64,000 nucleotides of DNA from Singulisphaera sp. PoT (GTDB lineage Bacteria; Planctomycetota; Planctomycetia; Isosphaerales; Isosphaeraceae): the NCBI RefSeq assembly GCF_049331405.1, contig NZ_CP186274.1, forward strand, positions 2,704,367 through 2,768,366. The letters are read 5' to 3'. The position numbers and the translations under genes are program-made. This document shows positions 2,474 through 25,068 of the stretch, in pieces. Position 1 is the stretch's first letter; each line of letters starts with the position of its first letter. The notes beneath the pieces were generated by a model. The model made no database searches. It saw nothing but the letters and a program-made list of their open reading frames with translations, and was not told the origin of the DNA.

Positions 2474-5400
2474 ATGTTCACGAAATTCTTCATCGAGCGT
2501 CCGATCTTCGCGAACGTCCTCGCGATCGTCACGATGCTGATCGGCGCGGTCACGATCTTCGTGCTGCCGATCGAGCAGTATCCGGAGATCACCCCCCCGA
2601 CGGTCCAGGTCACGACGACCTACCCGGGGGCCGACTCCAAGACCCTGTCCGACACCGTGGCCTCTCCCATCGAGCAGGAGGTCAACGGCGTGCAGGGGAT
2701 GCTCTACATGTCGTCCACCTGCGCCTCGGACGGCTCGTACAACCTGACGGTGACCTTCGAGGTCGGCACGAACCTGGACATGGCCCAGGTCCTCGTGCAG
2801 AACCGGGTCGCGGTCGCCCAGCCGAGGCTCCCGCAGGAGGTCCAGCGGCAGGGCATCACGACCAAGAAGAAGTCCACAGCCATCATCCTCGTCGTGGCCC
2901 TGACGTCCAAGAAGGACAGCAAGGTCCAGTACGACAGCCTCTTCCTGAGCAACTACGCCACGCTCCGGGTGAAGGACGTTCTGAGCCGGATCTACGGCGT
3001 AGGCGACATCCAGATCTTCGGCTCCAGCAACTACGGCATGCGGATCTGGCTCGACCCCGAGAAGCTGAAGGCCCGCAACCTGACGACGATCGACGTCCTG
3101 ACCGCGATCCAGGAGCAGAACATCCAGGTCGCCGCGGGGCAGGTGGGGGCGCCACCGACGCCGGGCAACCAGGACTTCCAGTACAGCGTGAGGACTCAGG
3201 GGCGGCTCAAGGATCCCGACGAGTTCGGCAACATCATCATCAAGACCAGCTCCGCCCCGGGCAATGAGGGCCTCGGCGCCCGCCTGACGCGCGTCAAAGA
3301 CGTGGCCAGGGTCGAACTCGGTGCCCAGGTCTACGACCAGTGGTGCGACGTCTCGGGCAGGGCCGCCGCGGGGGTCGCGGTCTTCCAGCTCCCGGGGGCC
3401 AATGCTCTGGACGTGGCCGACAAGGTCATCCAGGCCATGGACGAGCTCAAGAAGACCTTCCCCGAAGGCATGGAGTATTCCACACCTTACGATACGACAA
3501 TCTTCGTCCGCGAGTCGATCCACGAGGTCTACAAGACCTTGTTCGAGGCGGGCGTCCTCGTGCTGATCGTGATCCTGCTCTTCCTCCAGGACTGGCGGGC
3601 GACGCTCGTGCCGGCCACGACCGTCCCCGTGACGATCATCGGGGCGTTTGCCGCGATGTTCGCCCTCGGGTTCACGGTGAACCTGCTCACGCTCTTCGGC
3701 CTGATCCTGGCGATCGGGATCGTGGTCGACGACGCCATCGTGATCGTCGAGAACGCCGCGCACCACATCGACCACGACAAGCTCCCGGCCAAGGAAGCCA
3801 CCATCCTGGCGATGGGCGAGGTCATCGGGCCGGTCATCGGGATCACGCTCGTCTTGATGGCTGTGTTCCTCCCGACCGCCTTCCTGGGCGGGATCACCGG
3901 GCAACTCTATCGCCAGTTCGCGCTCACGATCGCGGCGACCGCGGTGATCAGCGCCATCAATGCCGTGACGCTCAAGCCGGCGCAGTGCTCGACGTACCTC
4001 CGCCCCACGCCCGCGAGGAAGAACGCCTTCTACCGGGCCTTCAACGCCGTCTACGACCGCTGCGAGCGCATCTATGTGGCGATTATCACAAGGCTCGTGC
4101 GACATACGGCCATCATGATGCTCGCCTTCGTGGGCCTGACGGTCTTTACGGGCTGGTGGTTCACTCGCCTACCGACGGGCTTCCTGCCGGTCGAGGACCA
4201 GGGGTATGCGATCGTCGGGATCCAGCTCCCGGACGCATCCTCGCAGGACCGCACCCGCGCGGTGGTCACGCAGGTCGAGGAGATCTTCAAGAAGACGGAA
4301 GGGGTCTCGCACTGGGTGATGATCGGCGGCCAGTCGGTCCTGGATCAGACCGTTGCCTCGAACGCTGCGACGATCTACGTCTGCTGGAAGCCTTATGAGG
4401 AGCGGACGACCCCCGAGACGAGCCAGGACGCGATCATCGGCCGGCTCCGCGGCGAGTTCGCCAAGATCGAGGAGGCGATGGTCTTCGCCTTCCCCCCCCC
4501 CGCGATCATGGGGCTCGGCGTGGCCGGCGGCTTCCAGATCCAGATCGAGGACCGCGGCAACGTCGGCCTCAAGGACCTCCAGGACCTGACCGACGACATG
4601 ATCGTCGCGGGCAACGGCCAGAAGGGAGCCGGCGGCCGGGCCAAGCTCCGCTCGCTGAATTCCACCTTCCGCGCGGGGGTGCCGCAGCTCTACGCCGACA
4701 TCGACCGCGTGAAGGCGAAGAGCCTCGACGTGCCGCTCGAGACCGTCTTCAACACGCTGCAATCCTCGATGGGATCGGCGTATGTGAACGACTTCAACCT
4801 CTTCGGCCGGACGTTCCAGGTCCGCGTGCAGGCCGACGACAAGTTCCGGCTCGAGCCGAACGACATCCGCAGGCTCGAGGTCCGCAACCGGACGGGGGCG
4901 ATGCTCCCGATCGGGACGCTCGCCAGCATCCGCGAGGAGCCCGGGCCGCAGATCATCACGAGGTACAACCTCTACCCGTCCGCGTCGATCTCCGGTGAGG
5001 CGGGGGAGGGCTTCAGCTCCGGCCAGGCGTTGACCTTGATGGAGCAGATCGCCGAGGAGAAATTCCCGAGCGGCGTCGGCTACGAGTGGACGGCGATGTC
5101 GTACCAGGAGAAGCGCGTGGGCTCCCAGGCGATCTTCATCTTCGCCCTGGCCGTCCTGCTCGTCTATCTCGTGCTGGCCGCCCAGTACGAGAGCTGGTAC
5201 ACGCCGGCGGCGGTGATCCTGGTCGTCCCCCTGGCTCTATTGGGGACGGTGGCGGCGGTGGCCTATCGGGGGATGGATAACAATATCTACACCCAGATCG
5301 GCATCGTGCTCATCATCTCATTGGCGAGCAAGAACGCGATCCTGATCGTCGAGTTCGCCCGGGAACTGAGGGCCAAGGGGATGAGCATCGTCGAATCGGC

Positions 5401-14065: not shown

Positions 14066-14592
14066 TGGGGGCGGGGTTCCGACGCTTCAATTGCGGGCCG
14101 GGAGGCGAGCTTCCGATGTCTGCACCTCGTCGACGTTGGTGACGTGCCGGTTCCCTTGGCTCGTTGTTCTAACTTTGCTTAGGACACGGAGCCTAATCTG
14201 TCAAACCGGTATAACGCGATCGCCAGGCGTCGAGGCGCCGAAGCTCAGGCCTTCTATCCGGTTCAGTGCGATGCCCGGTGCGACGATTCCGGAGTTTGGC
14301 TCACGTCCGATCCGTGTGGCATAATGAAAAAGACAGCGTGGATCGATCGCGGTCCACGCCTCCTCGGTGCGTATCGATCGCGAATGCGTCGCCTCATGGC
14401 TATTGGTTCCGTTGCGCGTTTTGCGGCGCCCAGTTCAACCGGAGAAACGTCGCGCGGAATGGGGAGATCGGTACTCGTCCGTTTCGATCCGATCACCTTG
14501 TGAACCTGCCACCTGTGGCGTAGATTTGAGATAACTCAGCCAAGCGCCCGTTCCGGTCCGAAAGCCGGTCTCCTTTCTTGAGAGGAACTTAC

Positions 14593-16317
14593 ATGTCCCG
14601 AACCGCGCGAATGTGGAAAGGCGTCGGGCCGTTGACGCTGGGCGGCCTGGTCCTATCCGGCGCCCTCTGCGGGGCCGCCGAACCCGCGTCGCTGCCCGAC
14701 CAGTTGAACATGCTGGGTCGCCAGGCCCTCGCCCAGGGCGAGAAGGATCACGCGGCGACGTTCTTCCGTAAAGCCCTCGCCCTCGACCCGGCGAACACCG
14801 AGGCCCGCAAGGCCCTCGCCCGTGTCGGCAAGGTCGAGAGAGTCGCCCTCCAGGATCCCGCTCCCGAAGCACCTCCCGCCGACGCGACGGTGGCCCCGGC
14901 TCCCGCACCCGCGGATGAGCCCGTCCCCGCCTCGCCCCCGCTCGAGAACGCTCCGGTTCTTGGCAATGCCCATCGGCCCCAGGCCACCATCGAAGAGGCC
15001 GAGCGCACCGCGGAAGTGATGCGGCAGCAGTTGACCGCCGACATCCGGCAGCGCGAGCAGGTCGCCCGCGATCAGGTCACGGCCGGCCAGCCCGAAGCCG
15101 CCCTCAACACCCTCCGGCTCGCCCAGACGGTGATCCGGTCCTCGACCGACGTCGCCGAGACGACCCGGAACGCCCTCGATCGCGAAGTCCAGGCCCAGAT
15201 CCTCTCGACCGTCAGGGCCGAGGAACAGATCGTCCAGGATCGCGCCGAGAAGCTCCGCGTCGAGGCCGCGGCCGAGCAACAGGTCCGCGCCCTGGATCTG
15301 CTGACCCGCAACCACGACACGGTCAGCACCATGATGATCCAGTTCGACAGCCTCATGGCGCAGGGCCAGTACAACGTGCTGTTCAACGGCGGCACCGGCG
15401 ACATCATCGCCACGACGGCCCCGTTCTACGAGGCTCGTCTGCTCGCCCAGAAGGCCCGAGCCCTGGTGCCGAACGACCCGACCCCCCGGGCCGGCGTGTT
15501 CGTCTCCTCGACGACCGGCTTCCTCGCCCAGGAGATGGCCTACGAGCAGTTGAAAGAGTTCCGGTTCATGCTGTCCATGCAGGACGCGGAGCGAGCCGCC
15601 GTTCCGTTCCCGGACACGATCACGATCGAGTACCCCGACGCCGAGATCTGGCGGACTATCTCGGAGAAGCGGATCAAGCGCTACGGCAAGGCCGTCGACC
15701 TGCTCGACCGCGACCCGAAGACGAAGAACATCATCGAGAAGCTCAATGAGCCCATCACGATGTCCTTCCCCAACGAGACGCCGTTCGAGGAAGTCCTCAA
15801 GTACATCAAAACGGCGACGACCGGGGCCAATGACTCGGGCATCCCGATCTACGTCGATCCCGTCGGCCTGCAAGAGGCCGAGAAGACGATGTCCTCGCCG
15901 GTCACGCTCGACCTCGAAGGCGTCCCCCTCAAGACGACCCTGCGGCTGATCCTCAAGCAGCTCACCCTCACCTACACGGTGAAGGACGGCATGCTGACGA
16001 TCACCTCGGAGAACGCTGAGGACACTCCGACCGAGATCCGCGTCTACCCGGTCGCCGACCTCGCCATCATCCCAATCTCCCTCATCCGCGGCGGTGGCGG
16101 TGGTGGTATGGGCGGCATGGGCGGCGGTATGGGCGGTGGCATGGGCGGCGGTGGTATGGGTGGCATGGGCGGCGGTGGTATGGGCGGCATGGGCGGCGGC
16201 ATGGGTGGTGGCGGCGGCATGGGGATGATGTCCGTCCCGCCTCGCGACCCGAATGCGGCCGATGAAGCGTCCACGCCCCCAAGCACCTCCAGCTTCGCGG
16301 AAAAAAAAAGCAGCTAG
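14593..16317 (+). CDS. Secreted protein: signal peptide, N-terminal TPR-like region, secretin/TonB-type N-terminal (STN-like) beta-domain, and a C-terminal Gly-Met-rich low-complexity tail (GGMGGMGGGMGGG…)
   Basis: The signal peptide reads MSRTARMWKGVGPLTLGGLVLSGALCGAA. The segment ITMSFPNETPFEEVLKYIKTATTGANDSGIPIYVDPVGLQEAEKTMSSPVTLDLEGVPLKTTLRLILKQLTLTYTVKDGMLTITS resembles secretin-N/STN domains. The ORF ends at TAG immediately after an A9 run. Confidence 0.75.
   Translation: MSRTARMWKGVGPLTLGGLVLSGALCGAAEPASLPDQLNMLGRQALAQGEKDHAATFFRKALALDPANTEARKALARVGKVERVALQDPAPEAPPADATVAPAPAPADEPVPASPPLENAPVLGNAHRPQATIEEAERTAEVMRQQLTADIRQREQVARDQVTAGQPEAALNTLRLAQTVIRSSTDVAETTRNALDREVQAQILSTVRAEEQIVQDRAEKLRVEAAAEQQVRALDLLTRNHDTVSTMMIQFDSLMAQGQYNVLFNGGTGDIIATTAPFYEARLLAQKARALVPNDPTPRAGVFVSSTTGFLAQEMAYEQLKEFRFMLSMQDAERAAVPFPDTITIEYPDAEIWRTISEKRIKRYGKAVDLLDRDPKTKNIIEKLNEPITMSFPNETPFEEVLKYIKTATTGANDSGIPIYVDPVGLQEAEKTMSSPVTLDLEGVPLKTTLRLILKQLTLTYTVKDGMLTITSENAEDTPTEIRVYPVADLAIIPISLIRGGGGGGMGGMGGGMGGGMGGGGMGGMGGGGMGGMGGGMGGGGGMGMMSVPPRDPNAADEASTPPSTSSFAEKKSS
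16081..16250 (+). repeat. Tandem nucleotide repeat (ggc ggc atg ggc ggt ggt atg … units) encoding a (G2-4M)n tail
   Basis: Read directly. The complementary strand yields a spurious PPPMPPP ORF. Confidence 0.8.
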
Positions 16318-16457: not shown

Positions 16458-17663
16458 ATGGTCGTGCCGGCGAAGCCAGGCTCCAGCAACTCGGGTCTCC
16501 TCGAGATCAAACCGGGTGCGGGCACTGCCACTCATAAGGCCGCCAGCAAGAATGCCGCCGCGACCGATCAGTATTGGCTTAACTATTACAAGACCCACGA
16601 AGAAGAGCCGAAGGACCTGAGGGAGAAGGTCTCGCTCCTGAATGTGAACAAGAAAACACAGGATGTCGAAGGCGCCCTCAAGGGGTATCTCACCTATCAT
16701 TCCAAGAATGCCGAGCCCTGGATGTATGAGGCCCTCGCCCTCGCCATCAAGATGAACAAGGGGAAGGATTCCGACATCCAGTCCGCGCTCGGCCATGCGG
16801 CCGACCTGGCCGAGGCGAGCCAGAACCCCAACTACCTCGTCAGCGTAGCCGACCTGATGTTCATCCACGGCTACGACCAGCGCGTGGGCAAGCTCCTCGA
16901 CCAGGCGATGGACAAGATCCCCCATCGCGGCGAGCCGATGATCATGTCGATCAACCTCGCCCAGCGGACGAAGGACCCGAAGCGCATGGCGACCTCGGTC
17001 GACCGGCTCCTCTCGCTCGGCTGGCCTGGCATCGACGACCAGATCCGTCGCGACGCGAGGCAACAGGTCGAGACCCTCGCCAAGTCCCTCCGCGACGAGG
17101 GGCAAAACGAGGAAGCGGACGCCATGACCCAGCGCCTGACCGACTCGGAGACGCGAGATCTCTTCGTGCGGCTGAGCTGGTCGGGAGACGCCGACCTAGA
17201 CCTCGCCGTCGACGAGCCCCTCGGAGCCACCGCGCACTACCAAACGCCCCGCACGGTCTTCGGCGGCTCGATCGTCCGGAACGGCTACGGCAAGCACCCC
17301 GAAGAGGTCTACGTCTGCCCCAGAGCCTTCGACGGCCAGTACACGATCCGGGTCGAGACGATCTACAACAACCCGGAAAAGCCGGCGCTCCAGGCGACGA
17401 TCGAGGTCTTCACTCACGAAGGCGCGAGCGACGAGAAGAAGGAGACGAAGACGATCAACATCGGCAGCAAGTCGCCCGCCCCGCTCGTCGTCACGCTGAA
17501 GGGGGGCCGCCGCAAGGAGGTCCTGCCGTTCCTGGCTCCGACCCCCATCCCGACGCCCGTCATCGCCTCGCAAAAGAAGGCCGATGTCGCCAAGGCGCAG
17601 ACGAAGACCCCCGCCACTCCCAAGGCCGGCAAGCCCGATCAGGGCAAGGCCAAGCCTCGTTGA
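16458..17663 (+). CDS. Hypothetical protein (401 aa as called). Its reading frame is open upstream to ~16266 and may be the C-terminal part of the preceding gene via a -1 shift at the A9 run.
   Basis: Alpha-helical N-terminal half, beta-rich C-terminal half, Lys/Pro/Thr-rich tail. No RBS-like sequence before the annotated ATG. Confidence 0.55.
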   Translation: MVVPAKPGSSNSGLLEIKPGAGTATHKAASKNAAATDQYWLNYYKTHEEEPKDLREKVSLLNVNKKTQDVEGALKGYLTYHSKNAEPWMYEALALAIKMNKGKDSDIQSALGHAADLAEASQNPNYLVSVADLMFIHGYDQRVGKLLDQAMDKIPHRGEPMIMSINLAQRTKDPKRMATSVDRLLSLGWPGIDDQIRRDARQQVETLAKSLRDEGQNEEADAMTQRLTDSETRDLFVRLSWSGDADLDLAVDEPLGATAHYQTPRTVFGGSIVRNGYGKHPEEVYVCPRAFDGQYTIRVETIYNNPEKPALQATIEVFTHEGASDEKKETKTINIGSKSPAPLVVTLKGGRRKEVLPFLAPTPIPTPVIASQKKADVAKAQTKTPATPKAGKPDQGKAKPR

Positions 17664-17712
17664 TGACGAGGGTCGGTTTGATTCTCGGGACGAACCGCCG
17701 CGGGGGCCTCGA

Positions 17713-18864
17713 TCAGAGGACCCCAGCGGTGATCTCCGAGAGGGCGGCGATGAAGGTCTCGATCTCCTCGACCGTCGTGAACGGCCCAGGGCTGAGACGC
17801 AAGGTCCCGTCCGGGAACGTCCCCAGGGCCTGGTGGGCGTAGGGCGAACAGTGCAGGCCGGGCCGGACGGCGATCTCGAAGCTCGCGTCGAGGATCGAGC
17901 CGAGGTCCTGCGGCGTGAGCGTGTCGGGGACGATCAGGGAGAGGGCCCCGACGTGCGTGGCCGGATCCCAGCGCCCGGCGATGCTCCAACCTTCGGCGGC
18001 CTCCGCCCAGGCGACCACGCGCTCGAGCAGCGAGACCTCGTGGAGCCGGAGCGAGTCGACCCCGCGCTCGGCGACCCAGGCGATGCCGGCGGCCAGGCCG
18101 GCGACCCCCAGCACGTTGGGAGTCCCCCCCTCGTAGTAGTACGGCAGGAGCGTCGGCTGCGTCTCGCTCGACGAGTCGCCGCCGGTGCCCCCTTCGCGCC
18201 AGGTGCGGAGCTTGGCCGCGCGAGGCCCGACATACAGCGCCCCGGTCCCCGTGGGACCGTAGAGGCACTTGTGGCCGGGGAAGGCGAGCAGGTCGATCGG
18301 AGTGGCCTTCAGGTCAATCGGCACGACCCCGGCTGACTGGGCGGCGTCGACGAGGAACAAGGCGCCCGACTCCCGGACGATCGGCGCGATCGCCTCGATC
18401 GGCTGGACGGTCCCGAGCACGTTGGAGGCATGCGTCAGGGCGACGAGCGTCGTCTTCGGCGTGAGTGCAGCCTTGATCGTCTCGGGGTTGAGGTAACCTC
18501 GCTCCGAGGCGACTCGCGTCAGGGTGATGACGCCGGCCTTCTCCAGCGCCCGCAGTGGGCGGCTCACCGAGTTGTGCTCGAGGTCCGACGTGATGACATG
18601 GTCGCCGGGGTTCACGCTCCCCTTGATCGCCATGTTCAGGCCGTCGGTGCAGTTGAGCGTGAAGATCCAGCGCTCGGGGGTCTCACCTCGGAAGAACTGG
18701 TTGAGCGCGTGTCGCGTGTCGTCGAGCGTACGCTCGGCCGAGACCGCCATGCGGTGCCCTGCGCGTCCGGGGTTCGCCAGGCTCGTGCGGGCGAACTTAT
18801 CCAGGGCCTGATAGACCGGCTCGGGCTTGGGGAAACTGGTCGCGGCGTTGTCGAGATAGATCAT
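17713..18864 (-). CDS. Class-V aminotransferase-fold cysteine desulfurase (Csd/SufS/IscS-like)
   Basis: PLP-lysine region FPGHKCLYGPTGTGALY; active-site Cys loop GLHCSPYA; motif MIYLDNAATSFP at the chosen start. It is the last gene of the riboswitch-controlled operon. Confidence 0.85.
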   Translation of the reverse strand: MIYLDNAATSFPKPEPVYQALDKFARTSLANPGRAGHRMAVSAERTLDDTRHALNQFFRGETPERWIFTLNCTDGLNMAIKGSVNPGDHVITSDLEHNSVSRPLRALEKAGVITLTRVASERGYLNPETIKAALTPKTTLVALTHASNVLGTVQPIEAIAPIVRESGALFLVDAAQSAGVVPIDLKATPIDLLAFPGHKCLYGPTGTGALYVGPRAAKLRTWREGGTGGDSSSETQPTLLPYYYEGGTPNVLGVAGLAAGIAWVAERGVDSLRLHEVSLLERVVAWAEAAEGWSIAGRWDPATHVGALSLIVPDTLTPQDLGSILDASFEIAVRPGLHCSPYAHQALGTFPDGTLRLSPGPFTTVEEIETFIAALSEITAGVL

Positions 18865-18991
18865 GGCAAAGAACCCCGTGAGAGCGATCCGCGGTCGAGT
18901 CGAACTCGTCTCGGCCTGGGCCCGGAGGCTCTCCCCATTCAAGGGGGGATGGCCGGGCCCGGCGCGATCCGACCTGTTCAACCCGGCCGGC

Positions 18992-20038
18992 TCAGCTCCC
19001 CACAAACTGGGCGTAGAGCGTCCGGGCCTTGGTGATGTCGTTGGTTCCCTTGATGATCGCGCGACCGTCGGGGAAGACCGTGAACTCGTGGCCTTCCGCC
19101 GCGAAGCGGAGCATGAAGTTGTTGTGCCGCACTTCGCCCAGGGGGGACAACCGGGTCGCGAGTTCGGGGAAGTTGAGCGGCTCGGCGCGTCGGGTGGCGA
19201 TCTGGACCGCGTTGCGGCCGCAGAGCGTGGTCGTGTGGGAGCCGAGAGCCCCGTCGAGCCACTCGAACTTGCGCTGACGACAGCAAGGGCAGTCCACCTT
19301 GCCGAGCAGGCCGGCCACCTTGAGACGGCGGAAGCTCCACTCCCAGATGTCGACCATGATCAGCTCGTTGTTCAGGGCGTCGGTCGCGCCGCTGAGGAGC
19401 TTGATGGCCTCGATGGCCTCGAACGAGGCGATGACCGAGACCGCGGGGCCGAGCACGCCGGCCGTCTCGCAGGTGGGGGTCATGCCCGGCGGCGGGCTCG
19501 TCTCGATCAGGCAGCGGATGCAGGGGGTCTTGCCCGGGATGATGGTCATCGTCTGACCTTCGCTCCCGATGACGCCGCCGAAGATCCAGGGCTTGTCGAG
19601 CTTCACCGCCGCGTCGTTGATGAGGTAGCGGGTCTCGAAGTTGTCGGTGCCGTCGAGGATCAGGTCGGCGTCCGAGACGAGGTCGAGGATGTTCGTGTGG
19701 TCGATGTCGGTCACGACCGACTCGATCGACACCGCGCTGTTGATCAGGCGGAGCTTGCGTGCGGCGGCCTCGGCCTTCGGGAGATTGTCCGCGACGTCCG
19801 TCTCGTCGAAGAGGATCTGGCGCTGGAGGTTGTGCGTCTCGATGAAGTCGCGGTCGACGATCCGGATGTGGCCGACGCCCGCGCGGACCAGGTGATTGGC
19901 GAGGACCGTGCCCAGGGCGCCGCAGCCGCAGATCGTGACGCGGCTCTGCATCAACTTGCGCTGACCTGCTTCTCCGAGAGCCGGGAAACGGACCTGGCGG
20001 CTGTACCGATCGAGCGGGTCTGGCGAGGCGGCGGACAT
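18992..20038 (-). CDS. E1-like adenylyltransferase of the ThiF/MoeB/MoeZ family, with a C-terminal Cys-rich extension (CPCC…C) of unknown fold
   Basis: Motifs RYSRQVRF, the nucleotide-binding loop ICGCGALGT and DRDFIETHNLQRQ; the C-terminal CxxC…CPCC zinc-site pattern is common in MoeB/MoeZ. Confidence 0.9.
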   Translation of the reverse strand: MSAASPDPLDRYSRQVRFPALGEAGQRKLMQSRVTICGCGALGTVLANHLVRAGVGHIRIVDRDFIETHNLQRQILFDETDVADNLPKAEAAARKLRLINSAVSIESVVTDIDHTNILDLVSDADLILDGTDNFETRYLINDAAVKLDKPWIFGGVIGSEGQTMTIIPGKTPCIRCLIETSPPPGMTPTCETAGVLGPAVSVIASFEAIEAIKLLSGATDALNNELIMVDIWEWSFRRLKVAGLLGKVDCPCCRQRKFEWLDGALGSHTTTLCGRNAVQIATRRAEPLNFPELATRLSPLGEVRHNNFMLRFAAEGHEFTVFPDGRAIIKGTNDITKARTLYAQFVGS

Positions 20039-20150
20039 GAGCGATTCCCTGGGCTTTGGGCCTTGCTAAGAGTCGATTCGGGTCGTTCGTATCAAATCAA
20101 ATCAAGATCACTGGACTCGAAAGGCATCAACAGGAGGTCGACGGCCGATC

Positions 20151-20423
20151 TCAGCCGCCGGCGACGGCCGGGATGATGTCGACGACGTCGCGGTCGGCGA
20201 CGGGCGTCTCGAGGTCTTCGAGGAAGCGGATGTCTTCGCTGTTCACGTAAACATTCACGTACTGCTGGAGCTCTCCGCTCGCGCTGAAGATCCGCTTGTG
20301 GAACTCGGGGTAGCGGGTGCCGAGGTCGCTGAGGATCGCGCCCACGGTGGCCCCCTGGGCCTCGACGCGGGTCTGCCCATCGGTGTGGGGGCGGAGCGGG
20401 GTGGGGATGGTGACGACGGGCAT
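20151..20423 (-). CDS. MoaD/ThiS/CysO-type sulfur-carrier protein ending in a free Gly-Gly
   Basis: About 90 aa from MPVVTIPTPL; the C-terminus reads …DIIPAVAGG* (ubiquitin-like beta-grasp with a terminal GG). The ORF could extend to 20525. Confidence 0.8.
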   Translation of the reverse strand: MPVVTIPTPLRPHTDGQTRVEAQGATVGAILSDLGTRYPEFHKRIFSASGELQQYVNVYVNSEDIRFLEDLETPVADRDVVDIIPAVAGG

Positions 20424-20673
20424 GTTGCTGAACCTTCTGGCTAGCCAGGCTAGGAAACGTTGGGGGCGAAGGAAGAGGAGAGGGGTCCGCCCTCGGACCG
20501 GCCTCGCCTTGGCCATCTCATTCATTTTATTGTACGGCAGGACCCAGCCGCTTCGGGGCGGGTCCTGCCCGTGGATGTTGCCCGTTCGCGGCGACGGGGC
20601 ATCCCGACGACGCCGGGGCTGGGCTCGCGCCCTCGCCGGTTTGGCTGCCGGCGTCGGGCGGCCTCGCTCAGGC

Positions 20674-21948
20674 TCAGGCCGTCGTGGCCGTGAGCTCGTT
20701 GGCTTCGACCCCGACCAGGGCCTCGAACTCGTCGAGCGACGGCTTGATGACGACCGGCTTGGCGATCTTGCCCAGCAAGGCCTCCTGCGTCTTCAGGCCG
20801 TTGCCCGTGATGCAGAGGACGGTCGAGCCGTCGCGATCGATCTTGCCCTGGGCGATCAACTTCTGGGCAACCGCGACGGTCACGCCGCCGGCGGTCTCGG
20901 CCCAGATCCCTTCGGTCTCGGCCAGCAGTCGCATCGCGGAGACGATCGCGTCGTCGTCCACGTCCTCGCTCCAGCCGCCCGTGTCTCGGATCAGCTTGGA
21001 GGCGAAGTAGCCGTCGGCGGGATCGCCGATGGCGAGGCTCTTGGCGATCGTGTTCGGGTTCCGGACCGGCTTGACCTTCAGGGCGTCGGTCTTGACCGTG
21101 TTCGAGATCGGGTTGCAGCCGGTGGCCTGGGCACCGTACATCTTGGTGTTGACGGGCCCTTCGATCAGGCCGAGGAGCTCCAGCTCCTTGAACGACTTGT
21201 GCAGCTTGCCGATCAGGCTGCCGCCGGCCATCGGGGCGACGACGTGGTCGGGGATCTTCCAGCCGAGGTCTTCGGCAATCTCGAAGCCCATCGACTTCGA
21301 ACCTTCGGCGTAGAAGGGGCGGAGGTTGACGTTCACGAAGCCCCAGCCGAACCGGAAGGCGATCTGCGAGCAGAGCCGGTTGACGTGGTCGTAGTTCCCC
21401 TCGATGGCGATGACCTTCGCGCCATAGATGGTCGCCCCCAGCACCTTGCCCTGCTCGAGGCCGTCGGGGATCAGGACGTAGGCCTTCAGGCCGGCCGCGG
21501 CGGCGTTGGCCGCCACGCTGCCGGCGAGGTTGCCGGTCGAGGCGCAACCGACCGTCTCGAACCCGAGCTCGACCGCCTTGGACAGCGCCACGGCGACGAC
21601 ACGATCCTTGAACGAGAGCGACGGGTGGCTGACGGCGTCATTCTTGACGTAGAGCTCGCGGACGCCCAGCGCCTCGGCGAGGCGGTCCGCCTTGATCAAG
21701 GGGGTGCAGCCGACGTGCTTGCCGACGGTCGGCTCGCCGTCAAGCGGCAGGAGCTCGCGATACCGCCACATCGTCCGGGGTCGGGCTTCGATCGCCTTGC
21801 GGGTGAAGGATCTGGCGACCGCCTCGTAGTCGTATGCGACTTCGAGAGGGCCGAAGTCCTCCGTGCAGAAGTTCAACGCTTCTTTGGGGTACAACTTGCC
21901 GCAGAGGCGACACTTCAAGCCTTGGACGAGATCTCCAGACACCGGCAA
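20674..21948 (-). CDS. Threonine-synthase-family fold-II PLP enzyme with an N-terminal zinc ribbon. Context suggests a homocysteine synthase that uses a protein thiocarboxylate (MetM-like) rather than a housekeeping ThrC.
   Basis: N-terminus has LKCRLCGKLYP…C; the PLP lysine region SLSFKDRV is present. It is the first gene after the SAM-I riboswitch. TTG/GTG start. Confidence 0.85.
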   Translation of the reverse strand: MPVSGDLVQGLKCRLCGKLYPKEALNFCTEDFGPLEVAYDYEAVARSFTRKAIEARPRTMWRYRELLPLDGEPTVGKHVGCTPLIKADRLAEALGVRELYVKNDAVSHPSLSFKDRVVAVALSKAVELGFETVGCASTGNLAGSVAANAAAAGLKAYVLIPDGLEQGKVLGATIYGAKVIAIEGNYDHVNRLCSQIAFRFGWGFVNVNLRPFYAEGSKSMGFEIAEDLGWKIPDHVVAPMAGGSLIGKLHKSFKELELLGLIEGPVNTKMYGAQATGCNPISNTVKTDALKVKPVRNPNTIAKSLAIGDPADGYFASKLIRDTGGWSEDVDDDAIVSAMRLLAETEGIWAETAGGVTVAVAQKLIAQGKIDRDGSTVLCITGNGLKTQEALLGKIAKPVVIKPSLDEFEALVGVEANELTATTA

Positions 21949-22139
21949 TTCTCCTGTGGTCCTCTCCGCAACCGTGGGCAGACGGCCGCGAGGCGGGACG
22001 GTGAGATAGAACGATTACCCCGAGGGATAAACGCCCCGATGCGCGATGATCCAGAACTCATGAGGGGAGACGAATGGAATGGATGAGGTAGGCCGAAGGC
22101 GAGCCGTTTTGCGATGAAAACGAAGATTCGCCGGAGGCC

Positions 22140-22276
22140 ATCTTATCTATCCCATCGGCACATCGAGCGTTTCAGCGTCGATGCACTGGGCAGGAGTTAG
22201 CACCAGCATTCACCCGATGGTGAACCGGTTGCTGTGGCGTCGCAGGGCCCGTCCCTCAGCCACTCTGGATAAGATG
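22140..22276 (-). ncRNA. SAM-I (S-box) riboswitch in the leader of the thrC-like/moaD-like/moeB-like/csd operon
   Basis: The minus-strand read TCTTATCCAGAGTGGCTGAGGGACGGGCCCTGCGACGCCACAGCAACCGG…GGTGCTAACTCCTGC…GATAGATAAGA matches the S-box conserved blocks (CTTATCaAGAG.GG.GGAGGGAC.GGCCC..GA..CC..GCAACC / GGTGCTAA.TCCTGC / AGATaAG). Further downstream there is a large imperfect palindrome (expression platform) and then the TTG/GTG start at 21948. Confidence 0.7.
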
Positions 22277-22371
22277 CGCACCAAATTGTGATCGAGTTAC
22301 TGTATGCCGATGGGCGACCATCCGTCAAGTCCCCGCGATGCGGGACCGCCGAATTTCAACGCTCATACACA

Positions 22372-22410
22372 AGCCCAAAACGAGCACGGCGGCCATGTTG
22401 AGGCCGCCGC
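22372..22410 (-). terminator. Intrinsic terminator of alaS: 8-bp GC stem (CGGCGGCC/GGCCGCCG), 7-nt loop, then CGTTTTGGG on the minus strand
   Basis: Read directly, about 40 nt after the alaS stop. Confidence 0.55.
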
Positions 22411-22449
22411 ACCCGGTCATCTCGGATGATGTTTCAAGCCGGCTTGGGC

Positions 22450-25068
22450 TCAACCCTGGAGCTTGGCCTTGACGTGGGCGAGGGCCTTCTCGAGGGCCTC
22501 GGCGACCTTGCTCGGATCTTTGCCGCCGGCCTGGGCGAGGTCGGGCCGGCCACCGCCGCCGCCCCCCACCACCGGGGCCACGTCCTTGAGCCAGTGGCCG
22601 GCGTTCAGGACCTTACTCTCGACGATGTCGGGGGTCAGGCCCGCGGCCAGGTTCACCTTGCCGTCGACCACCGAGGCCAGCAGGACGGCCAGGCCCGTGC
22701 CCACCTTACGCCTGAGGACGTCAATCAACTGGCGGAGGTCGTCGGGCGAGACGTTCTCGAGGGCGTGTGCGATGACCTTCAAGTCATTCACGGCCGTCGC
22801 CGAGGCGAGCAGCTCGTCGGGGGACGCCTTGGTGGACGGCCCCTCGGCTTTCCGCTGCTTGGCCTCTTTCTTGAGGGTCTTGATCTCCTCGAGGATCGTG
22901 TTGACGCGATCGACGACCATCGCCGGCGAGACCTTGAGGCTCTGGGCGACCTCGGAGAGGATCTCCTCCTCCTGGCGGACATAGTCGATCGCCGCCTGAC
23001 CCGTCAGCGCCGTGATGCGCCTGACACCCGCCGAGACCGATTCCTCGGAGACGATCTTGAACAGGCCGACCTGGCCGACGTTGTCCAGGTGTGTGCCGCC
23101 GCAGAGCTCGCGAGAGAACTCGCCCATCTTCACGACGCGGACGATATCCGGGTACTTCTCGCCGAAGAGGGCCATCGCGCCGAGCGACCGGGCCTCTTCG
23201 ATCGGCATCGTCGACCAGGAGACGTCCTCGCCCAGGAGCACGCGTTGATTGACCGTCTCCTCGACCAGTCGCAAGCGATCGCGGCCGACCGCCTCCGGAT
23301 TCGAGAAGTCGAAGCGGAGCCGGTCCGGCTCGACCTTGCTCCCCGCCTGCTGCGCGTGCTTGCCGAGGTGCGTGTGGAGCGCGTGGTGGAGCACGTGGGT
23401 CGCCGAGTGGGCGCGGCGGATCGCCTGACGCCTCGTCGGGTCGACCACGGCCTTGGCGCGATTCCCCACCGCAACCTTGCCCTCGACGACGTTGCCGATG
23501 TGGATCGTGAAGTCGTTATCTTTCTTCGTATCGATGACCTGGAAGACGAAGCCCTCGCCCCGGATCTCGCCGAGGTCGCCGACCTGCCCGCCGCTCTCGC
23601 CATAGAAGGGCGTGCGATCCAGGATCAGGGCCACGGGCGTGGTCCCGCCGACCTGGGCCGAATCGGCGAGGTTCTTCTGCTCGATGATCCCGATCACCTC
23701 CGAATCCGATTCGGTGGTCTCGTAACCGAGGAACTCGCTGCCCCGGTGGTAGGACTTCTTGAGCGTATCGAGCGGCCCCGTCGCGAAGACGGCGGCCGCC
23801 TCGGTCGTGCCTCGCGAGATGGCCCCGTGCTTGTCAGACGCCTCCTCGAAGGCCTTCATGTCGACGCGGAGGTTCTGGTCGTTCGCCAGGCTCTCGGTGA
23901 CCTCGATGGGAATACCGTAGGTCGAGTGCAGCACGAACGCCTCGGCACCCGAGAAGGTGTCCGAGCCGGCGGCCTTCGTCTTGCTGAAGGTGTCGTTGAG
24001 GCGCTTGAGCCCGTTCTCCAGGTTATTGAGGAACTGCTCTTCTTCCTCCCGCACGACGGTCTGGATGCGCTTGACGCTCTCCTGAAGCTCCGGATAGGGG
24101 CGCTTCATCACGTCGGCAACCGTCGGGATGATCTGGTAGAGGAACGGCTCGCGATATCCCATCTGGTAGGCGTCGAGCACCGCGCGACGCAGCAGACGCC
24201 GGATCACATATCCCTGCTTCTGCTTGTCGGGCTTGACGTTCTCGTGGATGCAGAAGGTCAAGGCGCGGGAGTGATCCGCCATCCGGCGGATCCGGATGCC
24301 GTCGAGGCTGCTCGCGTCATACTTGACGCTCAACTGGTCGGAGACCGCGGCGACGATCGGCTTGAAGATGTCGGTCGCGAAGACGGTCGGCACCCCCTGC
24401 AAGCAGGCCGCCGCGCGCTCAAGGCCCATGCCCGTGTCGATGTTCTTGCTGGGCAGGGGCTCGAGCTGCCCGGGCCCGACGCGGTTGAACTGGGTGAAGA
24501 CGAGGTTCCAGATCTCGACTTCCTTGGGGCCGTTGCCGTGATAGAAGATCTCGGAGCAGGGGCCGCAGACCCCGTCGGGGCCGTGCGTCGGCGCGCCCGC
24601 CGGCCAGAAGTTGTCGTCCTCTCCCATGCGGGTGATCCGCGAGGCGGGGACCTTGATCTCGTCGTGCCAGATGTTGAACGCTTCGTCGTCGTCGAGGTAG
24701 ACCGTGATCGTGAGCCGCTCGCGGTCCATCTTGAGGACCTTGGTGAGGAACTCCCAGGCCCAGTGGATCGCCTCGCGCTTGAAGTAGTCGCCGAAGCTGA
24801 AGTTCCCGAGCATTTCGAAGAATGTCTCGTGGAACGACGTCTTGCCGACGTTCTCGATGTCGCCGGTGCGGATGCACTTCTGGCACGTCGTCGCGCGGGT
24901 GAAGTTCGGGTCTCCGAGGCCCATGAACTCCCGCTTGAACTGGTTCATGCCTGCCGGCGTGAACAACACGGTCGGGTCGTTCGGGACCAGCACGTCGCTG
25001 GGACGGCGGACGCAGCCCTTGGAGACGAAGAAGTCGAGATATGCTTCGCGAAGTTCGTCGGTAGTCAT
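22450..25068 (-). CDS. alaS: Alanine--tRNA ligase
   Basis: 872 aa; canonical N-terminus MTTDELREAYLDFFVSKGC…; editing-domain HxxxH motifs and a C-terminal DHHA1-like domain. Confidence 0.97.
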   Translation of the reverse strand: MTTDELREAYLDFFVSKGCVRRPSDVLVPNDPTVLFTPAGMNQFKREFMGLGDPNFTRATTCQKCIRTGDIENVGKTSFHETFFEMLGNFSFGDYFKREAIHWAWEFLTKVLKMDRERLTITVYLDDDEAFNIWHDEIKVPASRITRMGEDDNFWPAGAPTHGPDGVCGPCSEIFYHGNGPKEVEIWNLVFTQFNRVGPGQLEPLPSKNIDTGMGLERAAACLQGVPTVFATDIFKPIVAAVSDQLSVKYDASSLDGIRIRRMADHSRALTFCIHENVKPDKQKQGYVIRRLLRRAVLDAYQMGYREPFLYQIIPTVADVMKRPYPELQESVKRIQTVVREEEEQFLNNLENGLKRLNDTFSKTKAAGSDTFSGAEAFVLHSTYGIPIEVTESLANDQNLRVDMKAFEEASDKHGAISRGTTEAAAVFATGPLDTLKKSYHRGSEFLGYETTESDSEVIGIIEQKNLADSAQVGGTTPVALILDRTPFYGESGGQVGDLGEIRGEGFVFQVIDTKKDNDFTIHIGNVVEGKVAVGNRAKAVVDPTRRQAIRRAHSATHVLHHALHTHLGKHAQQAGSKVEPDRLRFDFSNPEAVGRDRLRLVEETVNQRVLLGEDVSWSTMPIEEARSLGAMALFGEKYPDIVRVVKMGEFSRELCGGTHLDNVGQVGLFKIVSEESVSAGVRRITALTGQAAIDYVRQEEEILSEVAQSLKVSPAMVVDRVNTILEEIKTLKKEAKQRKAEGPSTKASPDELLASATAVNDLKVIAHALENVSPDDLRQLIDVLRRKVGTGLAVLLASVVDGKVNLAAGLTPDIVESKVLNAGHWLKDVAPVVGGGGGGRPDLAQAGGKDPSKVAEALEKALAHVKAKLQG

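What the first reader, a model, noticed from the sequence alone, without database searches (positions are those of the whole stretch)
22087..22276. SAM-I (S-box) riboswitch on the minus strand upstream of a thrC-like operon
All three conserved S-box blocks (CTTATCaAGAG.GG.GGAGGGAC.GGCCC / GGTGCTAA.TCCTGC / AGATAAG) can be read on the minus strand in the right order and spacing, ending ~190 nt before the first ORF of the operon. Between the riboswitch and the start codon lies a large imperfect palindrome (GGCCTCCGGCGAATCTTCGTTTTCATCGCAAAACGGCTCGCCTTCGGCC) that could be the expression platform, whether transcriptional or translational. S-box elements have mostly been reported in Firmicutes and a few other phyla. 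One in a planctomycete-like genome, controlling a non-canonical gene set, is worth noting.
Basis: partly seen in the sequence, partly recalled or inferred. Interest (0 to 1): 0.75.

Follow-up and report, generated by a model that had tools for sequence, protein, structure and literature searches.

The report
SAM riboswitch before planctomycete homocysteine operon
This is a genuine SAM-sensing (S-box/SAM-I) riboswitch in a Singulisphaera-like planctomycete that most likely shuts off a four-gene operon making the methionine precursor homocysteine by a recently described protein-thiocarboxylate route. It is an ordinary kind of element in a little-studied phylum, with an unusual and still unresolved way of passing its signal downstream.

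Summary
Rfam RF00162 (SAM-I) matches window 22275-22140 (minus strand) at 77.3 bits (threshold 44.4, E 2e-16). It covers the full model, and P1-P4, the k-turn and the pseudoknot are all readable. The same aptamer precedes the same gene in 79 of 80 related Isosphaeraceae/Gemmataceae loci.

The 'thrC-like operon' has four genes: a ThrC-family PLP enzyme, a CysO-like sulfur carrier ending in -GG, a ThiF/MoeB-type E1 and a cysteine desulfurase. This order is conserved in 60 of 81 loci. It matches in kind the MetM/MetO thiocarboxylate pathway (O-phosphohomoserine to homocysteine) described in Streptomyces albulus in 2024, where metM also carries a SAM riboswitch.

The switching elements are elsewhere. 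A downstream block (E1+E2, 22056-22034) pairs with the 5' flank plus the P1 5' strand. The flank part of this helix covaries across the family, and the helix competes with P1.

No intrinsic terminator is present. The output step is unresolved. The candidates are exposure of a C-rich strand that loads Rho, and occlusion of the ribosome-binding site.

Verdict: a real riboswitch and a new member of a known kind, of modest interest.

The parts
22299..22328 (-). Sigma-70-like promoter: -35 TTGACG (22328-22323), 18-nt spacer, -10 TACAGT (22304-22299). It implies a transcription start about 16 nt before the aptamer.
   Evidence: 1 site found against 0.2 expected. TTGACG-N17/18-TAnnnT, with the -10 ending 22-25 nt before the aptamer, recurs in 53 of 73 related leaders.
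22276..22286 (-). 5' flank AUUUGGUGCGC. It is the 5' strand of an outer long-range helix ('P0') that pairs with E2.
   Evidence: Duplex with E2 is -12.9 kcal/mol. The flank and its downstream partner covary: class-level permutation 5 of 200,000; pair count in a flank-blind register 61.9% paired against 30-50% when slid, and 19 double-change cells against 10.1 expected.
22140..22275 (-). SAM-I (S-box) aptamer. P1 is 22274-22268 with 22147-22141. P2 has a GA/GA k-turn. The P2-loop CGGG pairs with CCUG in a pseudoknot. P3 is present, and P4 carries a 28-nt insertion.
   Evidence: RF00162 at 77.3 bits, E 2e-16, full length. Across 73 aptamers, 99.1% of core cells are paired, the pseudoknot is 94.5% paired, and 57 columns are invariant.
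22091..22139 (-). It is a stable hairpin directly after P1, conserved in position and fold but not in sequence.
   Evidence: -17.8 kcal/mol, z -2.8. There are 61 distinct sequences in 62 loci, mean z -2.39, and 92% have z below -1. No U-tract follows it.
22048..22090 (-). Pyrimidine-rich strand of 43 nt (C16, G5, U15, A7). It comprises a degenerate 'B' copy of the P1 5' strand (family consensus CCUUAUCC; here UACCUCAUCCAU), a C-rich linker, and E1 (UUCUGGAUC, 22056-22048). E1 is complementary to the P1 5' strand plus J1/2 (AUCCAGA).
   Evidence: Blocks are conserved in the alignment. Family composition is C 0.40 and G 0.20. The best 78-nt leader window sits at the median 99.5th percentile for C-G in its own locus. 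Predicted unpaired probability rises from 0.30 to 0.46 when P1 is enforced, in 51 of 52 loci, and from 0.37 to 0.52 in the window.
22034..22045 (-). E2, CGCGCAUCGGGG. It is the 3' strand of the outer helix P0 and is complementary to the 5' flank.
   Evidence: Together with E1 it pairs with flank + P1-5' + J1/2 at -22.8 kcal/mol, against -7.7 kcal/mol for P1.
21940..21955 (-). Ribosome-binding region: SD AGGAG (21955-21951) and the probable GTG start (21942-21940).
   Evidence: Read directly from the sequence. CgGTGtc is conserved at the start of the gene in relatives.
20674..21942 (-). ThrC-family PLP enzyme (422 aa) with a Cys-rich N-terminal extension of about 55 aa. Proposed MetM-like homocysteine synthase.
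   Evidence: PF00291 at 8e-67. TIGR00260 at 282.8 bits, but PRK08197 is below its cut-off. Solved ThrC structures match only from about residue 55.
20151..20423 (-). ThiS/MoaD-fold sulfur-carrier protein (90 aa) ending in ...AVAGG. Proposed MetO-like carrier.
   Evidence: PF02597 at 1.4e-17. The closest solved relative is M. tuberculosis CysO, 3dwg_C, E 8e-24. Translation.
18992..20038 (-). ThiF/MoeB-type E1 adenylyltransferase (348 aa) without a rhodanese domain.
   Evidence: PF00899 at 1.1e-76; PRK12475-like over its full length; solved ThiF and MoeB structures at 1e-40.
17713..18864 (-). Class-V aminotransferase-fold cysteine desulfurase (TIGR01977 family), the presumed sulfur donor. It is the last gene of the unit, and the next gene is convergent.
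   Evidence: TIGR01977 at 395.8 bits, above its cut-off of 377; PF00266 at 4e-78. The gene order is conserved in 60 of 81 loci.

Best explanation
A sigma-70-type promoter starts a transcript whose first ~150 nt fold into a SAM-I aptamer. When SAM is bound, helix P1 (UCUUAUC with GAUAAGA) is locked. When SAM is scarce, P1 (only -7.7 kcal/mol) is displaced. Its 5' strand, together with J1/2 and the 11-nt 5' flank, pairs with a downstream block E1+E2 (-22.8 kcal/mol in the window). In most relatives its 3' strand also pairs with a decoy copy of the 5' strand (B), across hairpin H1. The flank:E2 part probably forms in both states as an outer closing helix. Locking P1 therefore leaves the C-rich, G-poor B-linker-E1 strand largely single-stranded.

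I commit to the following output step. The exposed strand serves as a Rho loading site, so that transcription stops in the ~100 nt before or early within the first gene. This may be reinforced by pairing of the pyrimidine strand with the purine-rich SD.

The operon being switched off encodes a self-contained sulfur relay. A cysteine desulfurase supplies sulfur, an E1 adenylates a CysO-like carrier, the carrier becomes a thiocarboxylate, and a ThrC-family enzyme uses it to convert O-phosphohomoserine to homocysteine. This is feedback control of methionine/SAM synthesis.

Shown: aptamer identity and architecture; conservation of aptamer, promoter, H1, B, E1, E2 and gene order; covariation of flank with E2; absence of a conserved terminator; the C>G bias.
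Inferred: SAM binding, OFF logic, the strand swap, the Rho step and the enzymatic function.

My probabilities: real SAM-I riboswitch repressing this operon, about 0.9. MetM/MetO-type homocysteine function, about 0.7. P1 competing with the E1/E2 helix, about 0.7. Rho as the main output, about 0.4.
For: Aptamer: RF00162 at 77.3 bits, E 2e-16. It is found in 11 of 11 relatives scanned with Rfam and 79 of 80 by nhmmer. The core is 99.1% paired and the pseudoknot 94.5%.

Alternative helices: conserved blocks. The combined 5' strand finds a -20 to -30 kcal/mol partner 70-110 nt after the aptamer in nearly all loci. Flank variants have matching partners: GGTGTGC with GCACACC, GGGACGC with GCGTTCC, GGTGAG with CTCACC. 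The permutation test gives 5 of 200,000, and the flank-blind pair count supports the helix. In unconstrained ensembles P(P1) is 0.008, P(3' strand pairs downstream) is 0.74, and the holo state costs 9.5 kcal/mol, which is the order of ligand binding.

Exposure: unpaired probability of B..E1 rises from 0.30 to 0.46 in 51 of 52 loci.

Rho-compatible features: no terminator in the window leader. Only 16 of 73 leaders have weak terminator-like matches, at inconsistent places. The alaS terminator next door shows that U-tract terminators exist in this genome. The best 78-nt window averages C 35 and G 15, at the median 99.5th percentile. Spacers are long, 86-289 nt. There is precedent for Rho-coupled riboswitches (PMC5499598) and for C>G-biased rut sites (PMC13650167 abstract).

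Operon: domain calls, CysO-like carrier, gene order conserved in 60 of 81 loci, and no internal promoters or terminators beyond chance. The MetM/MetO pathway and its SAM riboswitch in S. albulus are described in bioRxiv 10.1101/2024.10.14.618325 and PMC12172450.
Against: Nothing here tests ligand binding or regulation directly.

The exposed strand is short for a rut site (43 nt in the window). The best C-rich 78-nt window overlaps the structured H1. The C>G bias would equally suit an anti-SD role.

In the predicted holo state, B and E1 can pair weakly with each other (-5.2 kcal/mol), which would reduce exposure. Enforcing P1 removes partners by construction, so one search is partly circular.

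Most of the flank:E2 covariation signal comes from one split between the two families, so few independent events support it.

In the window B is degenerate, so the 3'-strand decoy seen in relatives is weak here.

Function: NCBIfam's thrC equivalog model is passed. I could not compare the protein with S. albulus MetM. There is no Mec/JAMM gene in the operon, and the E1 has no rhodanese domain.
Confidence: 0.45

Rival explanations
1. The aptamer and strand swap are as above, but the output is purely translational. In the SAM-bound state a freed pyrimidine-rich element pairs with the SD/start region and blocks initiation. That element would be the C-rich linker in Isosphaeraceae, or E2 (CUCACCCC) in Gemmataceae after the 5' flank is captured by the tail of B. 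Any drop in transcript level would be secondary.
For: Translation attenuation is the commonest predicted mechanism outside Firmicutes (PMC2258182). In Gemmataceae the elements form a textbook relay: flank GGUGAG, B tail UCACCAG, E2 CUCACCCC and SD GGGGUG. The predicted holo fold of L064 pairs E2 with the SD. Across the family the SD/start is slightly less accessible with P1 enforced (0.36 to 0.32, 48 of 73 loci, Wilcoxon p 7e-4). There is weak covariation between the B..E1 strand and the SD window in Isosphaeraceae (z -2.3, p about 0.012). The window linker contains UCUCC, complementary to GGAGA in the SD.
Against: In the window and its closest relatives the predicted SD accessibility does not change (0.43 against 0.42; L001-L003 0.25 against 0.25). 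There is no covariation between E2 and the SD/start region (z +2.1 in Isosphaeraceae, -1.4 in Gemmataceae). The best SD partner overlaps the flank-binding site in only 29 of 73 loci. The SD lies about 95-135 nt beyond the switching elements, with variable hairpins in between. Spacers this long are not needed for SD occlusion.
Confidence: 0.3
2. The riboswitch is real, but the operon does not make homocysteine. It could be a genuine threonine synthase that happens to sit next to a sulfur-carrier system. Alternatively the cassette could make cysteine or another thio-compound, as with CysO/CysM in M. tuberculosis or thiosugar and thio-cofactor pathways.
For: The enzyme passes NCBIfam's thrC equivalog model (TIGR00260, 282.8 against 167.1), and public sources name it threonine synthase. 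The carrier's nearest solved relative is CysO of the cysteine pathway. No MetM reference sequence could be compared.
Against: A SAM-sensing OFF switch fits a methionine-branch enzyme, not threonine or cysteine synthesis. The ThrC fold uses O-phosphohomoserine, and the tight, conserved linkage to carrier, E1 and desulfurase (60 of 81 loci) has no role in threonine synthesis. GapMind's authors state that MetM is often misannotated as threonine synthase (bioRxiv 10.1101/2024.10.14.618325). S. albulus metM is reported to carry a SAM riboswitch (PMC12172450). The protein fails the PRK08197 threonine-synthase cut-off (276 below 303) and has an extra N-terminal domain absent from solved ThrCs.
Confidence: 0.15
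3. The aptamer acts through an intrinsic (factor-independent) terminator, as in classical Firmicute S-boxes. The terminator would be H1 or another hairpin lacking a canonical U-tract.
For: H1 is a stable GC-rich hairpin immediately after P1. In Gemmataceae it is followed by a U-rich stretch, CGUUCUCUUAUCU. High-GC bacteria are thought to use some terminators without U-tails (mentioned in PMC2258182).
Against: The scan finds no terminator in the window leader. After H1 the window reads UACCUCAUCC, with no U-tract. H1 forms in both predicted states, so it cannot be the regulated element. Terminator-like sites occur in only 16 of 73 leaders, at inconsistent positions. A normal U-tract terminator exists 100 nt upstream after alaS, so the genome does use them.
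Confidence: 0.07

Closest known systems
SAM-I / S-box riboswitch (Rfam RF00162), e.g. the B. subtilis yitJ/metI leaders and T. tengcongensis metF
   Same: The aptamer architecture is the same: a four-way junction P1-P4, a k-turn in P2, a pseudoknot between the P2 loop and J3/4, and a conserved core. It sits upstream of sulfur/methionine genes, and OFF logic is presumed.
   Different: There is no terminator/antiterminator platform. The main competitor of P1 pairs with the 5' strand plus J1/2 and the 5' flank, from about 85-105 nt downstream. A decoy copy of the 5' strand and an outer closing helix are also present. The spacer to the start codon is long, 197 nt. The host is a planctomycete.
metM-metO of Streptomyces albulus: thiocarboxylate-dependent conversion of O-phosphohomoserine to homocysteine (Hasebe et al. 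2024, known to me only through PMC12172450 and bioRxiv 10.1101/2024.10.14.618325)
   Same: A ThrC-homologous enzyme sits next to a small sulfur-carrier protein, preceded by a SAM riboswitch, and is routinely annotated as threonine synthase.
   Different: Here the E1 and a cysteine desulfurase are in the same operon. The E1 has no rhodanese domain, unlike MoeZ. The carrier already ends in -GG, and no Mec/JAMM hydrolase gene is in the cassette. Orthology to S. albulus MetM was not tested.
CysO-CysM-MoeZ-Mec cysteine pathway of Mycobacterium tuberculosis
   Same: The carrier protein is closest to CysO (3dwg_C, E 8e-24). A protein thiocarboxylate delivers sulfide to a PLP enzyme acting on a phosphorylated amino-acid precursor.
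   Different: The PLP enzyme here belongs to the ThrC family, not the CysK/CysM family. The expected substrate is O-phosphohomoserine. Regulation is by SAM.
Riboswitches that act through Rho and/or translation in Gram-negative bacteria (E. coli thiM/thiC, ribB, lysC; Salmonella mgtA)
   Same: They have no intrinsic terminator. Ligand-dependent refolding changes the accessibility of a downstream single strand, and translation control and Rho termination can be coupled (PMC5499598, PMC10946432).
   Different: The aptamer class and the phylum are different. Nothing here has been tested experimentally, and the rut-like character rests on composition only.

Membership tests
SAM-I riboswitch (RF00162) | Covariance-model score above the curated gathering threshold, over the full model | tested here: met
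   77.3 bits against 44.4, E 2e-16, model positions 1-108 of 108. Clan competition retained SAM-I rather than the SAM-IV or SAM-I/IV variants.
SAM-I riboswitch (RF00162) | Four-way junction with helices P1, P2, P3 and P4 | tested here: met
   The alignment to the model shows all four helices. Of 2190 pair cells in 73 relatives, 99.1% form standard pairs, against 40-51% when slid. Most pairs are invariant, so this shows compatibility rather than independent covariation.
SAM-I riboswitch (RF00162) | Kink-turn in P2 (tandem sheared G.A pairs) | tested here: met
   G19-A20 opposite G35-A36 in the window aptamer. All four positions are invariant in 73 sequences. The geometry itself is not testable here.
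SAM-I riboswitch (RF00162) | Pseudoknot between the P2 loop and J3/4 | tested here: met
   CGGG (positions 25-28) pairs with CCUG (82-85). It is 94.5% paired across the family, with GU/AU/GC alternation at one pair and 2 double changes at another.
SAM-I riboswitch (RF00162) | Binds S-adenosylmethionine and discriminates against SAH | not testable with these tools
   This needs in-line probing, ITC or equilibrium dialysis.
SAM-I riboswitch (RF00162) | Lies in the 5' leader of a methionine, cysteine or SAM metabolism gene | tested here: met
   It lies 197 nt upstream of a ThrC-family/sulfur-carrier operon on the same strand, downstream of a conserved promoter. It holds the same position in 79 of 80 loci.
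Classical S-box terminator/antiterminator expression platform | Intrinsic terminator hairpin with a U-tract after the aptamer, competing with an antiterminator that uses the P1 3' strand | tested here: not met
   There is no terminator-like site between 22140 and 21942. Only 16 of 73 relatives have weak, non-homologous matches.
MetM/MetO thiocarboxylate homocysteine pathway | ThrC-homologous PLP enzyme encoded next to a ThiS/MoaD-fold sulfur carrier with a C-terminal Gly-Gly | tested here: met
   The adjacency is conserved in 76 of 81 loci, and most exceptions are truncated contigs.
MetM/MetO thiocarboxylate homocysteine pathway | SAM riboswitch upstream of metM, as reported for S. albulus | tested here: met
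   The S. albulus statement comes from PMC12172450.
MetM/MetO thiocarboxylate homocysteine pathway | Carrier-activating MoeZ (E1 plus rhodanese) and the Mec hydrolase | tested here: not met
   The E1 has a ThiF domain only and resembles PRK12475 rather than MoeZ (199 bits against a cut-off of 647). There is no JAMM gene in the four-gene unit. A cysteine desulfurase is present instead. These functions could be encoded elsewhere in the genome, which was not searched.
MetM/MetO thiocarboxylate homocysteine pathway | Sequence orthology to the characterised S. albulus MetM and MetO | not tested
   The reference sequences and the original paper (PMC11497804) were not available.
MetM/MetO thiocarboxylate homocysteine pathway | Catalyses O-phosphohomoserine plus carrier-COSH to homocysteine | not testable with these tools
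   This needs an enzyme assay or genetic complementation.
Rho-dependent riboswitch attenuator | C-rich, G-poor, weakly structured rut region exposed in the OFF state | tested here: inconclusive
   The C>G bias is strong and conserved, and predicted exposure rises with P1 enforced. However, the exposed strand is only about 43-56 nt, and Rho dependence cannot be tested in silico.

The most novel reading that the evidence does not exclude
Planctomycetes of two families use a SAM-I riboswitch with a previously undescribed expression platform. It would be a four-strand swap ({P1, B:E1} against {A:B, P1-5'/J1-2:E1}) enclosed by a covarying outer helix formed by the very 5' end of the mRNA. It would signal through Rho rather than through a terminator or direct SD occlusion. 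It would control a self-contained four-gene variant of the thiocarboxylate homocysteine pathway (desulfurase + rhodanese-less E1 + GG-ended carrier + N-terminally extended ThrC-like synthase). That cassette may be the sole route to methionine in these organisms.
Probability: 0.3. Interest if true: 0.5.

Novelty: new member of a known kind. Interest (0 to 1): 0.35.

Why it matters
Three points follow.

(1) The result gives a safe functional re-annotation. The 'threonine synthase' downstream, and its relatives in at least 80 Isosphaeraceae/Gemmataceae genomes, is very probably a homocysteine synthase of the MetM type. The riboswitch is independent evidence that the cassette belongs to methionine/SAM metabolism. 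This extends a pathway so far characterised in Streptomyces to another phylum, in a more compact form that supplies its own sulfur.

(2) Very little is known about RNA-based regulation in Planctomycetes. This leader has a conserved promoter, aptamer and four conserved downstream elements, and it is available in about 80 natural variants. That makes it a ready-made system for asking how riboswitches signal in a high-GC organism that does not use a terminator here.

(3) The 5'-strand competitor with a covarying outer helix is a design worth testing, but it is a variation on known riboswitch logic, not a new principle.

Tried and rejected
- Intrinsic terminator. I scanned the window and all leaders and found no conserved terminator.
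- H1 as the regulated element. Rejected, because it forms in both predicted states.
- Leader peptide. The window has a 15-codon ATG ORF across E1/E2 (CUCAUGAGUUCUGGA...). It has no SD, and the ATG is absent in L001, so I dropped it.
- E2 as a sequestor of the start codon (CACCGG with CCGGUG). This is attractive by eye, but there is no covariation with the SD/start window, and the flank:E2 helix persists in the predicted holo state.
- Single best RNAduplex site for the SD. Too noisy in GC-rich sequence, with only 29 of 73 overlaps.
- Column-wise alignment of E2. The E1-E2 spacing varies from 2 to 20 nt, so about half the sequences are out of register. I used the alignment anyway as a conservative test.
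- Extra genes in the Gemmataceae operon gaps. They are unrelated insertions and uninformative.
- The original MetM paper (PMC11497804) is not held, and no preprint was found.
- Literature on SAM-I in Planctomycetes. Nothing specific was found in searchable text.
- A permissive Rfam scan of 17500-22500 found no further RNA family. One MIR3444 hit at E 0.29 is chance.
- I could not fetch Streptomyces or cyanobacterial metM loci, because the single genome-contig scan returned only the 80 best relatives, all planctomycetal.
Full report

Yes. A scan of the whole 64-kb window on both strands against all 4227 Rfam families returns a single hit above threshold. It is RF00162 (SAM riboswitch, S-box leader) at 22275-22140 on the minus strand. 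The score is 77.3 bits against a gathering score of 44.4, E = 2e-16, and the match covers the full model (reproduced).

The alignment to the model shows the following features.
- P1 is UCUUAUC (22274-22268) with GAUAAGA (22147-22141).
- P2 has the GA/GA kink-turn signature, G19-A20 opposite G35-A36.
- The P2 loop CGGG can pair with CCUG in J3/4 to form the pseudoknot.
- P3 is present.
- P4 carries a 28-nt insertion at its tip.

The spacer to the ORF is 191 nt to the TTG that the ORF listing reports (21948). It is 197 nt to the GTG at 21942, which I take as the real start. AGGAG lies 8 nt upstream of that GTG, and CCGGTG is conserved at the gene start in relatives.

**2. Organism and conservation**

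The ThrC-like protein is 90% identical to that of Singulisphaera acidiphila and 95% identical to a protein on a 10.9-Mb NCBI contig.

A scan of one genome per species returned 372 relatives. The 80 best are all Isosphaeraceae or Gemmataceae, apart from two oddly labelled MAGs. Rfam finds RF00162 on the same strand just upstream of the gene in 11 of 11 loci scanned (62-79 bits). nhmmer finds the aptamer in 79 of 80 loci, and the one miss lacks upstream DNA.

Across 73 distinct aptamers, 57 columns are invariant. The core pairs are standard in 99.1% of cells, against 40-51% with the partner slid. The pseudoknot is paired in 94.5% of cells. Because most pairs never vary, this shows compatibility, and the model score remains the main evidence.

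A sigma-70-like promoter (TTGACG, N17-18, TAnnnT) ends a fixed 22-25 nt before the aptamer in 53 of 73 loci. In the window it lies at 22328-22299. The transcript should therefore begin only about 16 nt before the aptamer.

**3. What is controlled**

Four genes follow on the minus strand.
- (i) 21942-20674: a 422-aa PLP enzyme of the threonine-synthase family. PF00291 scores 8e-67. TIGR00260 is passed, but PRK08197 is below its cut-off. Its first ~55 residues, a Cys-rich segment (CRLC...C), have no counterpart in solved ThrCs, which match only from about residue 55.
- (ii) 20423-20151: a 90-aa ThiS/MoaD-fold protein ending in AVAGG. Its closest solved relative is M. tuberculosis CysO, the thiocarboxylate sulfur carrier (3dwg_C, E 8e-24).
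- (iii) 20038-18992: a ThiF/MoeB-type E1 without a rhodanese domain.
- (iv) 18864-17713: a cysteine desulfurase of the TIGR01977 family, at 395.8 bits against a cut-off of 377.

The order enzyme > carrier > E1 > desulfurase is kept in 60 of 81 loci, and most exceptions are truncated contigs. There are no internal promoters or terminators beyond chance. The next gene is convergent.

This is the parts list of a protein-thiocarboxylate sulfur relay feeding a ThrC-like enzyme. Exactly such a route was described in Streptomyces albulus in 2024: O-phosphohomoserine plus MetO-thiocarboxylate gives homocysteine, catalysed by the ThrC homologue MetM. GapMind's authors summarise the pathway and warn that MetM 'is often misannotated' as threonine synthase (bioRxiv 10.1101/2024.10.14.618325). 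Another paper states that S. albulus metM has an upstream SAM riboswitch (PMC12172450). The 'non-canonical gene set' is therefore explained, and control by SAM is logical end-product feedback.

The cassette differs from the Streptomyces description in three ways. The E1 and a desulfurase are in the operon. The E1 is not MoeZ-like. The carrier needs no C-terminal trimming, and no Mec/JAMM gene is present. I could not obtain the original paper or the reference sequences, so orthology to MetM is inferred from context and was not tested.

**4. The expression platform**

There is no intrinsic terminator in the window leader. Only 16 of 73 relatives have weak, non-homologous terminator-like matches. 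Meanwhile alaS, 100 nt upstream, ends with a normal hairpin plus U-tract.

The spacer from aptamer to start codon is long in every locus, 86-289 nt. Alignment of the spacers reveals conserved blocks in both families.
- A: the P1 3' strand.
- H1: a hairpin with 61 different sequences in 62 loci, all folding (mean z -2.4).
- B: a copy of the P1 5' strand, CCUUAUCC. It is degenerate in the window, UACCUCAUCCAU.
- A C-rich linker.
- E1: CUCUGGAU, complementary to the P1 5' strand plus J1/2.
- E2: complementary to the 5' flank.

E2 and the flank change together. GGUGCGC goes with GCGCACC in Isosphaeraceae, and GGUGAG with CUCACC in Gemmataceae. Individual variants match too: GGUGUGC with GCACACC (L011), GGGACGC with GCGUUCC (L045), and GGUUUGC with GCAGACC (L026).

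Two tests avoid fitting the register to complementarity.
- I anchored on the invariant part only and compared each flank class with each downstream window, double-centred. Only 5 of 200,000 permutations reach the observed value.
- I located E2 by aligning the downstream windows blind to the flank. This gives 61.9% paired cells against 30-50% when slid. There are 19 double-change cells against 10.1 expected (2 of 500 shuffles), and the covariation score is 0.183 against 0.148 (1 of 500).

The caveat is that the largest contribution comes from the single split between the two families.

**5. Thermodynamic picture**

In the window, P1 is worth -7.7 kcal/mol, while [flank + P1-5' + J1/2] with [E1 + E2] is worth -22.8 kcal/mol.

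In unconstrained ensembles of 73 leaders, P1 forms with probability 0.008. The P1 3' strand pairs downstream with probability 0.74, and the 5' strand pairs downstream with mean probability 0.47. Enforcing P1 costs 9.5 kcal/mol on average, which is the order of magnitude that ligand binding could pay.

In the predicted folds of the window and of L001, the flank:E2 helix is present in both states and acts as an outer closing helix. What differs is the partner of the P1 5' strand, which is A in one state and E1 in the other. The simplest description is a strand swap, {P1, weak B:E1} against {A:B, P1-5'/J1-2:E1}.

Enforcing P1 raises the unpaired probability of the B-linker-E1 strand from 0.30 to 0.46 in 51 of 52 loci, and from 0.37 to 0.52 in the window. 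This result is partly built into the constraint.

**6. Output step: unresolved**

The exposed strand is C-rich and G-poor. The family means are C 0.40 and G 0.20, and the window has C16 and G5 in 43 nt. The best 78-nt leader window averages C 35 and G 15 and sits at the median 99.5th percentile of its own locus, or 0.97 after correcting for taking a maximum. That fits a Rho loading site, and riboswitches coupled to Rho are known (PMC5499598, PMC10946432).

It would also fit an anti-SD role. SD/start accessibility falls slightly with P1 enforced (0.36 to 0.32, 48 of 73 loci, p 7e-4), but not in the window (0.43 against 0.42). Covariation between the exposed strand and the SD window is weak (z -2.3), and it is absent for E2.

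In Gemmataceae the elements form a cleaner relay of anti-anti-SD, anti-SD and SD.

I commit to Rho-dependent attenuation as the most likely main output in the window, at about 0.4. Pure translational control is at about 0.3. A non-canonical intrinsic terminator is unlikely, at about 0.07.

**7. Comparison, novelty and score**

The aptamer meets every sequence-level criterion of the SAM-I family. The classical terminator platform is not present. The operon matches the MetM/MetO pathway in kind, but with a different activating and sulfur-donor arrangement.

I found no paper in the searchable library that discusses SAM-I riboswitches in Planctomycetes. From my own knowledge, and not verified here, Rfam-based annotation pipelines will already mark this element in deposited Singulisphaera genomes.

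I therefore rate it as a new member of a known kind. It is a solid and useful annotation: it re-labels a widespread 'threonine synthase' and extends a new methionine route to another phylum. Its expression platform deserves an experiment, but it is not a surprise to a specialist. Interest 0.35.

Noticed in passing
L052:3450-4064 (MAG contig JAKAUH010000172.1): After a 5'-truncated metM-like gene, metO and E1, the contig carries a second SAM-I aptamer (3450-3610) and a second metM-like start (3859 onward) where the desulfurase should be. This is either a tandem duplication of the riboswitch-metM unit or an assembly wrap-around.
   Followed up: no
L056:4614-4726 (Gemmataceae MAG): Rfam Acido-Lenti-1 RNA (RF01687) scores 45.4 bits against a threshold of 37 on both strands. 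It lies in the gap between the carrier and E1 genes of the same operon. Its function is unknown.
   Followed up: no
window 22405-22373 (minus strand): A GC-rich hairpin followed by UCGUUUUGGG lies right after the alaS stop codon. It is an ordinary intrinsic terminator that separates alaS from the riboswitch promoter, and it shows that this genome does use U-tract terminators.
   Followed up: partly
window 14578-16317 (plus strand): A 579-aa protein has an N-terminal TPR repeat and a striking C-terminal Gly/Met repeat (GGGGGGMGGMGGGMGGGMGGGGMGG...). The neighbouring 401-aa ORF (16458-17663) has no Pfam match.
   Followed up: no
window 21942-21780 (minus strand; residues 1-55 of the ThrC-like protein): An N-terminal extension has a conserved CxxC...C pattern (LKCRLCGKLYPKEALNFCTEDFGPLEV, also present in Gemmataceae). 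It has no counterpart in any solved threonine synthase. It may be a metal-binding or carrier-docking module specific to this subfamily.
   Followed up: partly
L064, L067 and other Gemmataceae loci, leader region (e.g. L064:5660-6000): In Gemmataceae the decoy element B is UCUUAUC+UCACCAG. Its tail is complementary to the 5' flank CUGGUGAG. E2 (CUCACCCC) is complementary to the SD (GGGGUG). This is a more explicit three-element relay than in the window's own family, which suggests the two families may read out the same switch differently.
   Followed up: partly
window 20673-20424 (minus strand): The intergenic gap between the ThrC-like gene and the carrier gene is unusually long at 250 nt, against about 90-180 nt in most relatives. 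No Rfam hit and no convincing promoter or terminator lie in it.
   Followed up: partly
L050:1-311 (minus strand): Bacterial RNase P class A RNA (185.8 bits, truncated by the locus end) lies about 5 kb upstream of the riboswitch in an Isosphaeraceae MAG. This is incidental.
   Followed up: no
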